A stretch of 37,506 nt of DNA, taken from IMG/VR virus record IMGVR_UViG_2802429245_000007; one strand, 5' to 3'. Origin of the DNA: a virus (taxonomy: Duplodnaviria; Heunggongvirae; Uroviricota; Caudoviricetes). Numbering within the stretch: position 1 is the first letter of the stretch; the number at the start of each line of letters is the position of its first letter. Shown here piece by piece: positions 15,001 through 18,000 of the stretch. The position numbers are program-made.

Positions 15001-18000
15001 TTGAACCGTCAAAATGGCTGTTGATGGTGATGGAATCCAGCGTCAGCCGTGGCTCCCAGCGACTCAGCGCCACATACACTGCCGACATGACCTGCAGGCG
15101 TAACGCCGGATTTTGTGGCTGGTCTATCAGTGCCGACAGCAGGGAACCATATTCACGGCGAGCAATGCGGCTACCCTGCGGCGTCAGCAGAATGTCCCGC
15201 ACCGACTGGCGCAGATGGTCAATATCAGTAATGGCTTTGCCGCTGGTATTGTTCATCCCGCTATAAAGCGTCATAGCGGGCCTCCGGTTGTGTCGCCGCC
15301 TTTCAGAACGCCAGTATGCTGATGCGCATCAACCACGATCCCGTTAGAACTCATCGCTCCGCCGCCCTGGGTAACGCCACCATTGATCACCACTTCGCTG
15401 TTAATACGCGTGCGATCAGCCTCCAGCACAAACTCACTGGTTTTCATGGTGATGTTGTCAGCGGCCTCAATGACCATTGATTTGATGCCCCTGACATACC
15501 AGCGCCCGGTGGCGGGTTCGTATTCAAACCAGGCGCCGTCAGGATGTTCTGTCACGCAGGCGTCCGCCGACGTAGACGGTGGTGCGAACTGATTCGAATA
15601 GACAGCGGGCAGCGCAAAGGCGGTTTCCAGATTGCCGCCCAGACTCAGCAGCACAACCTGCTCACCTTCCGATGGTCGCCACCATGTGCGGGCATTCCCG
15701 GCACGCAGCGTCAGCCAGCTGATCCAGTTGGTTTCAAGCTCGCCCGTTTTCACCCGGCAAAGCCAGTTTTCCCTGTCCACTTCGGTGACTACCCCAGTGC
15801 GGATCAGGTTGGTGATAAGGCGCATGATTTCGGTTAGTTGTGCGTTCATAGGGCAATGATTCAACATCTTGCATTTATCTTAAAACATATGTATTTGTAT
15901 GAGCGGTCTTACAATATGGAATAACAAAAATGAAATTTCGTTCTTTGTATAAATGGGATTGCCCAGACACTTGTAAAGCACTAGTATATTTTGCGCAATT
16001 ACTGGATGAAATGCTATTTGACTATACACTGGACACATACAAACCCTCAGTGATGAATACCCCAACAATTGGAGTAGAAACTTTAAATACAATTAAAGAT
16101 GTTGAGGATGGTATTATTCAGCCTAAAAATATTGAACATTTAACCGCAGAATTAATACATAACTTGTCATGTGATAAAGTAGCACAAGATTTATTAGGTG
16201 ATGCTTACCAAGCTTTTCTCAACAAACTAAAAAATACTAACATAAGCCCTAAAGAGAGAAGCTCAATAATTGAAATGCTGGTCATTCAATTACCACCCAA
16301 ATTATATAAAGAAAAAAGTGAAGAACTTATCACCCAAGAGTTATCATCCCCTAACTGGGAAAGAAGCATCATACGCAAGCTAACAAGAAATTATATCAGT
16401 TTATTACTCTACATTGGCTTTAGCCAACATAATCTTAAGAATTTAACCCAGCAATTTTTTTATTATGGGAATAATAAAATATCAAATAACACTGATGTCT
16501 CTTCTTTTTTTGATTTAATAAAACTCGAAAAAAAGAAATACAAAATATATTTTATTGTTGAACCAGTGTTTTTAGGCGCAGAGCCAACTTTCGAAAGACT
16601 CTCTTTGTCTGTTGAGAAAGAACCACCAGAAGAATTTTCCCAACATGTTTTTTTTAGAAATCTGCAAAGAAAGAAGATAGTTTGCGTATCAAATATAGAA
16701 GCTTTTGATTCTTATTCAGCAAGAGAGAATGCTGAAAACCTACTTAAATTAGCATCATCCTTTTTAAATATTTATCATCATAAAGATAAACCTACTTGGT
16801 CAAATGAAGCTTTCGTTATAACTGATACAGACTCTTTGAAAGTGGCTGAAAGACTTAACCCCATGAAAAAATGCAAGGACTTAAAGCATGAAAAGGCCAA
16901 GAAACGTCTTGAATCATTGATGTCTGAGTTTTCTCTAGAAAATAGTTCATTTGCCAAGTTCTTGAGAAGTATTCAATTACATTCAATGGCATTAAAAAGT
17001 GAAAATGTTGAAAATCAGCTTTTAAATCTATGGATAGCTCTTGAATCATTAGTGCCGACAGACACTAAATCCAAGGATCAAGCAACAATAGAACATATTA
17101 CTGCAAGTATAATTCCATTCCTGAATATTACATATATAGACTCCTTAATTGACAACCTTACCCGAGACCTGCTGTTATGGAATAGACACATACTAAACTC
17201 ACATTTAAAAGGAATACCTGGAGCAAAAGCGAAACACAAACTAGCCAATATAATGATTCTTCCTGAATACGAATCAGTAAGGGAATCTTTATCCGCTAAA
17301 TTTCGTGATTACACATTGCTTTCAGATCGTTTCGAGTATATAAAAAACATAGTTTCATCCCCGGAGTCAATTAAATCAACTTTAGATAACCATAAGTTAA
17401 GATTAGAATGGCAACTCAGAAGAATTTATAGAACAAGAAATAACATAGTCCATTCTGGAAAAGGTGGTAAATTTACCCCCCTTTTAGTTGAACACACCCA
17501 CAACTATCTTGATAAAGTATTTGAAATACTTGTTATGCTTGCATCAAAACCCCGAAAAATTCGCTCTGTAACACAGGGGTTTAGATATGTAAAAATAATC
17601 TATGAACAAAGGTACGAAACTATTACAGAAAAGAACTTCACTTTCGATATGAGCAATATTAATAATAATTTATTTTGGGATTGATATAACCTAAAATCAA
17701 TCGGTGAGGTTAGAGTAGGAACTACAAAAAGTCAACCAACTCTACCTCGCCAACCATTGCAATAAAATGCGGCGTGTTAAAAAGTATAAATCATCATTTA
17801 CACCCAGCAGGCGACGCTCTGCGTAACGGACCTCCGGTCCTTTGCGACTGACGCGATCACGCAGGCCGTAATGGTGAACGCGGGCAATGCGCTGCACCTT
17901 GCCTTCAAACTGCACGCTGGCAGAGTCGGCGCTGGCGGCAGTTTTCAGGTATTTTGTGGTGCGCAGCTTTGCAAACATCTGACGTTTGATACGGCCTTTT

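What the first reader, a model, noticed from the sequence alone, without database searches (positions are those of the whole stretch)
15930..17684. Reverse-oriented 584-aa cargo gene between baseplate gene V and tail gene S with a C-terminal HEPN-type motif
Seen in sequence: the only gene in the late region transcribed against the structural operons; it fills the gap between S and V (the P2 orf30-type variable locus); codon usage is visibly AT-rich with many Lys/Asn/Ile; the C-terminal region contains RRIYRTRNNIVHSGKGG (R-N-x3-H); no P-loop. Inference: a horizontally acquired candidate anti-phage or abortive-infection effector with a large uncharacterised N-terminal region of about 450 aa that could act as sensor. 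Its start lies only about 17 bp from the candidate PV late-promoter dyad, so its expression may be tied to late-promoter architecture.
Basis: partly seen in the sequence, partly recalled or inferred. Interest (0 to 1): 0.8.

Follow-up and report, generated by a model that had tools for sequence, protein, structure and literature searches.

The report
Known ApeA defence gene in P2 prophage

Summary
The 584-aa ORF at 15930..17684 (+) exists exactly as described. It has 32% GC against about 57% in its neighbours, lies between baseplate gene V and tail gene S of a nearly complete P2-like prophage, and carries a C-terminal HEPN motif (R503-N-x3-H508). It differs by two residues from PDB chain 9HXJ, "Bacterial antiviral defense protein Ec3ApeA". 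A January 2026 bioRxiv preprint shows that ApeA proteins are single-gene abortive-infection HEPN RNases. They cut tRNA anticodon loops, form doughnut-shaped oligomers and are switched on through a ligand pocket. Ec3ApeA gave moderate phage protection and forms a dodecamer. All residues of the Ec2ApeA deoxydinucleotide (pdNG) pocket are conserved here and across 120 homologs. The S–V ("orf30") site is one of three textbook moron sites of P2-like phages. P2's own orf30 is also reverse-oriented and abuts the pV activator site, so the 17-bp proximity to the late-promoter dyad is real but is the ancestral layout. The "only reverse gene" claim is wrong, because an acyltransferase gene in the Z/fun region is also reversed. 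The non-HEPN part is about 335 aa, not 450. The verdict is already known. The minor additions are the prophage context, a predicted pdNG activator, and a Serratia chromosomal copy that keeps a remnant of V.

The parts
15930..17684 (+). apeA (Ec3ApeA allele), 584 aa. A single-gene HEPN anti-phage defence protein with N-terminal domain about 1-198, Mid domain about 199-310 and HEPN_ApeA domain about 335-584.
   Evidence: ORF. 582/584 identical to PDB 9hxj. PADLOC ApeA E=1.4e-13. Domain limits transferred from Ec2ApeA in the preprint through the alignment.
17430..17453 (+). Codons for the HEPN catalytic motif R501-T-R503-N504-N-I-V-H508 (Rx4H). R503 corresponds to Ec2ApeA R502, whose alanine mutant abolishes defence.
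   Evidence: Residue mapping. R503 and N504 are invariant in 120/120 sequences and H508 in 119/120. Mutant data from the preprint.
15854..15929 (.). V-apeA intergenic block that travels with apeA. It contains the PV late promoter for V (- strand) and must contain the still unmapped apeA promoter (+ strand). It is unrelated in sequence to the empty-site spacer apart from the dyad.
   Evidence: Homology to the empty-site prophage stops at 15853. The block is conserved in Citrobacter, Klebsiella and Serratia copies. No sigma-70 consensus match was found.
15896..15913 (.). TGT-N12-ACA dyad (TGTATGAGCGGTCTTACA). It is the Ogr-type late-activator binding site of the PV promoter, centred 55.5 nt upstream of the V start codon, which is the transcription start by analogy with P2.
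   Evidence: Same spacing in L002 and L003, and 56.5 nt in L004. P2 annotation gives the activator site at 10239-10266 and the V operon TSS at the V ATG, 10308. Other dyads in the window fall at the expected PF and PO/PP positions. The dyad is broken in the non-phage Serratia copy.
15271..15849 (-). Baseplate gene V, the left flank of the cargo site.
   Evidence: Pfam Phage_base_V plus Apex. 99% aa identity to the empty-site relative.
17742..18188 (-). Tail completion / virion morphogenesis gene S, the right flank. Its last ~16 codons (17742-17789) lie inside the exchanged segment.
   Evidence: Pfam Phage_tail_S. Homology to the empty-site relative resumes only at 17790. The C-termini differ.
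17703..17751 (.). Strong hairpin at the junction of the convergent apeA and S genes. It is the probable terminator of the upstream late operon (…R-S) and possibly also of apeA.
   Evidence: MFE -31.9 kcal/mol, z = -5.7 on the + strand and -4.6 on the - strand. P2 annotates a rho-independent terminator directly after S. The consensus terminator scan did not call it.

Best explanation
The gene is apeA, specifically an allele of the Ec3ApeA variant. It is a single-protein anti-phage defence system carried as a moron in the S-V (orf30) cargo slot of a P2-like prophage.

Proposed mechanism:
- The protein assembles through HEPN-HEPN dimers into a ring. This is shown for Ec3ApeA, which forms a dodecamer.
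- The composite Rx4H RNase sites face a tRNA-sized central channel.
- It then cuts tRNA anticodon loops, arrests translation and aborts the infection. This protects the lysogen population and the resident prophage from competing phages.

Status of each step:
- Shown by others for this protein: anti-phage activity (moderate), the dodecamer ring and the Zn site.
- Shown only for the paralogues Ec1ApeA and Ec2ApeA: tRNA cleavage, the abortive phenotype, ligand activation and the essentiality of R502/R521.
- Inferred here: because every pdNG-contacting residue of Ec2ApeA is conserved, the activator of this protein is most likely also a 5'-phosphorylated deoxydinucleotide ending in G, a by-product of phage-induced host DNA degradation.
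- Inferred here: the gene is expressed in the lysogen from an unmapped promoter within the 76-bp block it shares with the divergent, Ogr-dependent PV promoter.
For: Identity and family membership:
- PDB 9hxj_A (MBP-Ec3ApeA) aligns 1-584 with two substitutions. Ec2ApeA gives E~1e-134 at 40% identity, Ec1ApeA 1.9e-11 and Ec4ApeA 8e-8.
- The PADLOC ApeA model gives E=1.4e-13.

Published function (preprint 10.64898/2026.01.26.701840):
- It forms doughnut oligomers. Ec3ApeA is a dodecamer with a Zn site and gives moderate protection.
- Ec2ApeA is activated by pdNG through the pocket.

Residue tests here:
- R503 and H508 are present.
- Pocket residues T36, Y37, S40, M42, E74, R149, R153, Y402, Y470, H488, R491, Q495, H522 and Y526 are identical to Ec2ApeA. 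I41 becomes V41, a main-chain contact.
- Apart from Y470 (72 of 120), these positions are 95-100% conserved in a 120-sequence alignment (118 homologs plus the window protein and Ec2ApeA). The mean position is 61% conserved.

Cargo status:
- GC is 32% against 57%.
- Only 1 of the 1038 complete E. coli genomes that share the flanks holds the full locus.
- The S-V site elsewhere is empty or holds TIR, SIR2, FRG, DUF5677 and similar genes.
- The same site and orientation occur in Citrobacter and Klebsiella P2-like prophages.
- A stand-alone chromosomal copy exists in Serratia.
- orf30 is an established moron site.
Against: - For Ec3ApeA itself, RNA targets, the abortive phenotype and a catalytic mutant are not reported in the text I could read.
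- The preprint states that no ligand density comparable to that of Ec2ApeA was seen in the pockets of the other homologues, Ec3ApeA included. This is despite the identical pocket residues found here.
- The regulatory loop that relays activation in Ec2ApeA (R334, R336, K337) reads S335, E337, N338 here. The coupling between pocket and active site may therefore differ.
- The window allele differs from the tested construct at T135 (I in the construct) and V190 (A in the construct).
- A second preprint shows that Ec1ApeA can act non-abortively by cutting RNA-phage genomes.
- No promoter for apeA was detected by consensus scanning.
- Pfam, NCBIfam and PHROGs give no significant hit.
Confidence: 0.9

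Rival explanations
1. It is an ApeA, but it works by direct, non-abortive cleavage of invading phage RNA. Activation would be by a structured phage RNA rather than a deoxydinucleotide, as proposed for Ec1ApeA against ssRNA phages.
For: The preprint 10.64898/2026.03.20.713152 reports this mode for Ec1ApeA and Ps2ApeA. No ligand density was reported in the Ec3ApeA pocket. The Ec3 regulatory loop differs from Ec2ApeA.
Against: The window protein is far closer to Ec2ApeA (40% identity, E~1e-134) than to Ec1ApeA (E 1.9e-11). It has all the Ec2ApeA pdNG-contacting residues, whereas Ec1ApeA has substitutions at several of them (E74D, R490D, S40K, H487T). Ec3ApeA was not tested against RNA phages in that study (no mention).
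Confidence: 0.07
2. It is a conserved virion or assembly protein of this P2-like phage.
For: It is located inside the tail/baseplate gene block, between S and V.
Against: Only 1 of the 1038 complete E. coli genomes that share the V and S flanks holds the full locus, and many have a 68-bp empty spacer there. No homolog is found in 50,697 deposited phage genomes. A 77%-identical copy sits outside any prophage in Serratia. The gene has foreign GC and the opposite strand. It is identical to a protein with demonstrated anti-phage activity.
Confidence: 0.01
3. It is a decaying or non-functional remnant (pseudogene in the making), with no current role in this lysogen.
For: The only complete-genome copy, in E. 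coli EC416, carries a 1-nt deletion that splits the gene. Several truncated members occur in the 90% cluster. No promoter was detected.
Against: The window ORF is intact from ATG to stop, with all catalytic and pocket residues present. The exact 584-aa sequence is seen on 42 contigs. A construct differing by two residues is active in vivo and folds into a regular dodecamer.
Confidence: 0.03

Closest known systems
Ec3ApeA (PDB 9HXJ; Juozapaitis et al., bioRxiv 10.64898/2026.01.26.701840)
   Same: The same protein: 582 of 584 residues identical over the full length. It is a HEPN defence protein, a dodecameric ring with a Zn site, and gives moderate anti-phage protection.
   Different: Two substitutions: T135 here against I, and V190 here against A. 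The preprint says nothing about a prophage origin; the word 'prophage' occurs 0 times. Here the gene is placed at the S-V moron site of a P2-like prophage.
Ec2ApeA (PDB 9HXB-9HXI), the mechanistically dissected ApeA
   Same: 40% identity over 579 aligned residues. It has the same three-domain layout, the same Rx4H catalytic residues and the same pdNG pocket residues.
   Different: The regulatory loop reads R334/R336/K337 in Ec2 and S335/E337/N338 here. The Ec3-type S-L-E loop is the majority among the 120 aligned sequences. Several inter-dimer residues differ, consistent with decamer versus dodecamer. Ligand binding and tRNA cleavage are shown only for Ec2.
Ec1ApeA, the original ApeA of Gao et al. 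2020 as cited in the preprint
   Same: The same family by PADLOC HMM and by PDB sequence match (9hxn, E 1.9e-11). It is a single-gene HEPN defence.
   Different: Only distantly related. Its pocket has several substitutions, it does not respond to deoxydinucleotides, and it has a different phage spectrum.
P2 orf30 and other morons at the S-V site of P2-like phages
   Same: The same slot, the same orientation opposite to the late operons, and a start codon 15-17 bp from the pV activator-binding site. Each is a non-essential single-gene cargo.
   Different: P2 orf30 is an unrelated 261-aa protein of unknown function. Other occupants in E. coli are TIR, SIR2, FRG, DUF5677, DUF6216 and similar proteins.
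HepT-type minimal HEPN toxins and the nucleotide-activated HEPN RNases Csm6 and Csx1
   Same: They share the Rx4-6H HEPN dimeric RNase core. HepT is the closest structural homologue of the HEPN_ApeA domain according to the preprint. Csm6 and Csx1 are likewise activated by nucleotide ligands.
   Different: ApeA has no antitoxin partner and no CARF domain. It has large N-terminal and Mid domains and assembles into a ring of dimers. Its ligand is an infection by-product, not a dedicated second messenger.

Membership tests
ApeA (single-gene HEPN anti-phage system) | Full-length sequence homology to experimentally validated ApeA proteins | tested here: met
   9hxj Ec3ApeA matches 1-584 with 2 substitutions. 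Ec2ApeA gives E~1e-134, Ec1ApeA 1.9e-11 and Ec4ApeA 8e-8. The PADLOC ApeA model gives E=1.4e-13.
ApeA (single-gene HEPN anti-phage system) | HEPN Rx4-6H catalytic motif in the C-terminal domain | tested here: met
   R503-N-N-I-V-H508 is present. In the 120-sequence alignment R and N are invariant (120/120) and H is present in 119/120.
ApeA (single-gene HEPN anti-phage system) | [quoted passage not shown] | tested here: met
   All Ec2ApeA pocket residues are identical except I41V, a main-chain contact. Apart from Y470 (72 of 120), the positions are 95-100% conserved in the family alignment. Actual ligand binding was not tested.
ApeA (single-gene HEPN anti-phage system) | Stand-alone gene with no conserved partner gene | tested here: met
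   In E. coli, Citrobacter and Klebsiella the neighbours are only the phage structural genes V and S. In Serratia they are unrelated chromosomal genes.
ApeA (single-gene HEPN anti-phage system) | Ring-shaped oligomer of HEPN dimers | not testable with these tools
   Reported for the 99.7%-identical Ec3ApeA construct, a dodecamer (PDB 9HXJ).
ApeA (single-gene HEPN anti-phage system) | Anti-phage protection that depends on the HEPN site; tRNA anticodon-loop cleavage | not testable with these tools
   Moderate protection is reported for Ec3ApeA. Catalytic-mutant and tRNA-cleavage data exist only for Ec1ApeA and Ec2ApeA.
Pfam / NCBIfam / PHROGs models (any significant hit that would annotate the protein as HEPN or ApeA) | A significant match to a curated family model | tested here: not met
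   The only Pfam hit is MauJ, E=0.091, below its cut-off. NCBIfam and PHROGs give nothing significant. This explains why every public record calls the protein 'hypothetical protein'. It does not argue against ApeA membership, given the PDB and PADLOC matches.
P2-like phage moron at the S-V (orf30) locus | Lies between S and V, is non-conserved among relatives, and has foreign composition | tested here: met
   The flanks are identified by Pfam. An empty-site relative has a 68-bp spacer. Variable cargo is seen across E. coli genomes. GC is 32% against 57%. The locus is described as a moron site in PMC6823313 and PMC3091744.

The most novel reading that the evidence does not exclude
The 76-bp block that travels with apeA fuses its promoter to the Ogr-dependent PV late promoter. 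Binding of the late activator (Ogr of P2, or delta of a P4 satellite) 17 bp upstream of the apeA start codon would switch apeA transcription off or on when the resident prophage or a satellite enters late development. A tRNA-cutting abortive-infection gene would then be wired to the helper-satellite late switch, so that it does not abort its own phage's lytic cycle. The evidence does not exclude this. The block and the dyad are conserved wherever the gene sits next to V and are degraded in the Serratia copy that has lost V, and no independent sigma-70 promoter was found. However, the same layout exists for the unrelated P2 orf30, and nothing here measures transcription.
Probability: 0.12. Interest if true: 0.45.

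Novelty: already known. Interest (0 to 1): 0.15.

Why it matters
The finding matters little as a discovery. The protein has a name (Ec3ApeA), a cryo-EM structure (PDB 9HXJ) and a phage-protection assay, and the locus is a textbook P2 moron site.

It has modest value as annotation and context:
- Every public record of this protein still says "hypothetical protein", and Pfam, NCBIfam and PHROGs miss it. Defence-system surveys that rely on those libraries will overlook it.
- It shows that Ec3ApeA is prophage cargo at the tail-gene hotspot of P2-like phages in E. coli, Citrobacter and Klebsiella. The ApeA preprint does not discuss this.
- The fully conserved pdNG pocket gives a direct, testable prediction for the so far unidentified activator of Ec3ApeA.
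- The Ec3-type regulatory loop, not the Ec2ApeA one that was dissected, is the common form in this clade.

Tried and rejected
- Pfam, NCBIfam and PHROGs scans of the protein gave nothing significant. Only PADLOC recognised it.
- The sigma-70 promoter and terminator consensus scan of 15700-17900 found no promoter in the V-apeA spacer and no terminator. The apeA promoter therefore remains unmapped. The hairpin at the S junction was found only by folding.
- tblastn against 50,697 deposited phage genomes found no match, so no isolated phage could serve as a reference for this cargo.
- I looked for ApeA in the two P2 hotspot papers. It is not mentioned in PMC9122126 or PMC13586616, and no supplementary files are held for the latter. 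I could not establish whether ApeA at this site had been tabulated before.
- tblastn for V, S, W and R protein remnants around the Serratia copy gave nothing significant. Only a DNA-level remnant of about 41 nt of the 5' end of V was detectable.
- The repeat search around the cassette found no flanking direct or inverted repeats suggestive of a transposon or integron-type insertion. The boundaries lie inside conserved phage sequence, which points to homologous exchange.
- Structure prediction and fold search were deliberately not run, because an experimental structure of a 99.7%-identical chain exists.
- A virion or assembly role, and the reading of the 17-bp dyad proximity as a special feature of this gene, were both considered and rejected (see rival explanations).
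Full report
**Observation**

The ORF is real. It is an ATG-to-stop frame of 584 aa at 15930..17684 on the + strand. It lies in a sharp GC trough of 32.1% overall and 26.7% at third codon positions, against 57.5% for V and 56.4% for S.

The flanking minus-strand ORFs are baseplate protein V (15271..15849, Pfam Phage_base_V plus Apex) and tail/virion morphogenesis protein S (17742..18188, Pfam Phage_tail_S).

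The window as a whole is a nearly complete P2-like prophage. Reading upward in window coordinates it runs D, U, T, E, FII, FI, [cargo], G, H, I, J, W, V, [apeA], S, R, lysis genes, X, L, M, N, O, P, Q, [cargo], A, and so on to the integrase.

The motif RTRNNIVH is at residues 501-508, and there is no P-loop.

- The gene is not the only reverse-oriented gene in the late region. A 331-aa Acyl_transf_3 gene at 10185..11180 (+) sits between FI and G.
- The non-HEPN part is about 335 aa and is structurally characterised. It is not about 450 aa and uncharacterised.

**Identity**

A sequence search of the PDB returns chain 9hxj_A, [quoted passage not shown]. It aligns to residues 1-584 with only two substitutions, T135I and V190A.
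- Ec2ApeA (9hxb to 9hxi) matches at E~1e-134, with 40% identity over 579 residues.
- Ec1ApeA (9hxn) matches at 1.9e-11 and Ec4ApeA (9hxm) at 8e-8.
- The PADLOC ApeA model hits at 1.4e-13.
- Pfam, NCBIfam and PHROGs give nothing significant.

The exact sequence is present on 42 public contigs and is named "hypothetical protein" in the records listed.

**What is known about it**

The structures come from Juozapaitis et al., bioRxiv 10.64898/2026.01.26.701840. According to that preprint:
- ApeA is a single-gene abortive-infection system. Its HEPN RNase cuts tRNA anticodon loops. This was shown for Ec1ApeA in vivo and Ec2ApeA in vitro.
- HEPN dimers assemble into doughnut-shaped rings with the active sites facing a tRNA-sized channel.
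[quoted passage not shown] For Ec2ApeA the activators are 5'-phosphorylated deoxydinucleotides ending in G (pdNG), thought to arise from phage-induced host DNA degradation.
- Ec3ApeA gave "moderate protection", was purified as an MBP fusion, forms a dodecamer and coordinates Zn at the dimer interface.
- No ligand density was seen in homologues other than Ec2ApeA.

The preprint never mentions prophages. A second preprint (10.64898/2026.03.20.713152) shows that Ec1ApeA can act non-abortively on RNA-phage genomes. It does not treat Ec3ApeA.

**Residue tests done here**

I transferred the Ec2ApeA numbering through the HMMER alignment.
- The catalytic residues R502 and H507 correspond to R503 and H508.
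- Every residue reported to contact pdCG or to be essential in the pocket is identical. These are T36, Y37, S40, M42, E74, R148, R152, Y401, Y469, H487, R490, Q494, H521 and Y525 in Ec2ApeA numbering. The one exception is I41V, which contacts the ligand through the main chain.
- In a MAFFT alignment of 120 sequences (118 full-length homologs down to about 38% identity, plus the window protein and Ec2ApeA), the pocket positions apart from Y470 (72 of 120) are 95-100% conserved and R503/N504 are invariant. The average position is 61% conserved, and only 18% of positions reach 95%.

The regulatory loop is different. Ec2ApeA R334, R336 and K337 are S335, E337 and N338 here. This resembles the engineered hyperactive "Trip" mutant R334A+R336E+K337A. 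Across the 120-sequence alignment the S-L-E version is the majority (104, 107 and 86 of 120), so the Ec2ApeA loop is the unusual one. Several inter-dimer residues also differ, in line with the dodecamer rather than a decamer.

My inference is that the activator of this protein is probably also a pdNG-type deoxydinucleotide. The relay from the pocket to the active site need not follow the Ec2ApeA scheme.

**The locus**

An empty-site relative, E. coli 09-02E (L002), has V and S separated by 68 bp. Homology to the window ends at 15853 and resumes at 17790, inside the 3' end of S. The exchanged segment is therefore 15854-17789, against 112 bp in the relative, and the last ~16 codons of S differ.

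No flanking repeats suggest transposition.

Of 5426 complete E. coli genomes, 1038 share the flanks. Only one, EC416, holds the full locus, and there apeA is split by a 1-nt deletion.

A spread sample of the other genomes shows the site empty in about 30 of 51 cases. Otherwise it holds single genes annotated as DUF6216 (including in BL21(DE3)), FRG, TIR, SIR2, DUF5677, DUF2971, an Sll1717-type P-loop ATPase, or hypothetical proteins.

The literature already treats this site as one of the three moron regions of P2-like phages (PMC6823313, PMC3091744). It also describes a defence hotspot within the tail genes (PMC13586616).

**Relatives**

Proteins 80-81% identical sit at the same site, in the same reverse orientation, in P2-like prophages of Citrobacter portucalensis and Klebsiella. 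Their divergence is similar to that of the flanking V, W, S and R proteins, which are 70-93% identical.

A 77%-identical copy in Serratia marcescens lies between unrelated chromosomal genes. DNA homology there begins at window position 15809, so about 41 nt of the 5' end of V are retained. That copy evidently descends from a P2-like prophage.

All copies have about 34% GC in hosts of 57-62% GC. No deposited phage genome among 50,697 encodes a homolog.

**The promoter observation**

It is centred 55.5 nt upstream of the V ATG. The same holds in the empty-site relative and the Citrobacter prophage, and the distance is 56.5 nt in Klebsiella, although the surrounding sequence differs.

The P2 GenBank record annotates three relevant features:
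- orf30 lies on the strand opposite to S and V.
- The pV activator-binding site lies 15 bp from the orf30 start.
- The V-operon transcription start is at the V start codon.

A dyad centred at -55 is therefore exactly the expected Ogr site.

Of the nine such dyads in the window, four lie at the expected late-promoter positions: PF (10079), PV (15896), and PO/PP (23252 and 23310). In the Serratia copy, which has lost V, the dyad is broken to TGT-N12-ATA.

The 76-bp block between V and apeA travels with the cassette, so cargo exchange here also swaps the PV promoter sequence. No sigma-70 consensus promoter for apeA was found, and its transcription start is unknown.

A strong hairpin at 17703-17751 (z = -5.7) occupies the position where P2 annotates the terminator after S.

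**Verdict**

The gene is horizontally acquired cargo encoding a HEPN abortive-infection defence protein whose sensing function involves the N-terminal part.

But the protein is already named, assayed and structurally solved, and the locus is a known moron hotspot. Novelty is therefore "already known" and interest is low.

The small additions made here are:
- the P2-prophage context of Ec3ApeA and its relatives;
- the prediction of a pdNG activator from complete pocket conservation;
- the finding that the Ec3-type regulatory loop is the common form in this clade;
- the prophage-derived Serratia copy.

The only reading with some novelty left is a transcriptional coupling of apeA to the Ogr/delta late switch. 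It is untested, and I rate it unlikely at about 0.12.

Noticed in passing
window 26165-28768 (- strand): In the gpQ-gpA (old/tin) hotspot, at 35-42% GC, there is a 384-aa protein with a C-terminal RES domain (Pfam E=4e-18, aa 213-344). Next to it is a 389-aa protein (27599-28768) with no hit in Pfam, PADLOC or NCBIfam. Together they are a possible uncharacterised two-gene defence or toxin cargo.
   Followed up: partly
window 10185-11180 (+ strand): A 331-aa Acyl_transf_3 membrane acyltransferase sits in the Z/fun moron region between FI and G, at about 35% GC and in reverse orientation. It is probably an O-antigen/LPS acetyltransferase-type lysogenic-conversion gene. It disproves the 'only reverse gene' claim.
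   Followed up: partly
window 31709-33624 (- strand): A PAPS-reductase-domain protein (weak SspD, DndC and BrxP similarity in PADLOC) overlaps a Dam-type N6-adenine methyltransferase (PADLOC orphan MTase, E=1e-110), next to gpA. The pair may be an anti-restriction or DNA-modification module of the phage.
   Followed up: no
L001 (E. coli EC416, NZ_AP027404.1) 1931-3684; window equivalent 16455: The only complete E. coli genome with this locus carries a 1-nt deletion that splits apeA into two annotated 'hypothetical proteins'. It also carries the I135 and A190 variants present in the PDB construct.
   Followed up: yes
L007 3880-4000 and L008 (Serratia marcescens contigs): A chromosomal apeA copy outside any prophage keeps about 41 nt of the 5' end of V plus the conserved upstream block, but its late-promoter dyad is degraded to TGT-N12-ATA. 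It looks like a defence gene left behind after loss of a P2-like prophage.
   Followed up: partly
S-V site of other E. coli P2-like prophages (hits H38-H72): The same slot elsewhere carries single genes annotated as TIR, SIR2, FRG, DUF5677, DUF2971, DUF6216 (also in BL21(DE3)) or Sll1717-type P-loop ATPase. The site behaves as a single-gene defence-cargo hotspot, and most of its occupants are untested.
   Followed up: partly
window 10079, 23252, 23310: Further TGT-N12-ACA dyads lie upstream of FI and in the divergent O/P spacer, where the PF, PO and PP late promoters of a P2-like phage are expected.
   Followed up: partly
window 17703-17751: A very stable hairpin (-31.9 kcal/mol, z = -5.7) overlaps the stop codon and last codons of S and the apeA-S spacer. 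The consensus terminator scan missed it. It is the probable late-operon terminator, as annotated in P2.
   Followed up: partly
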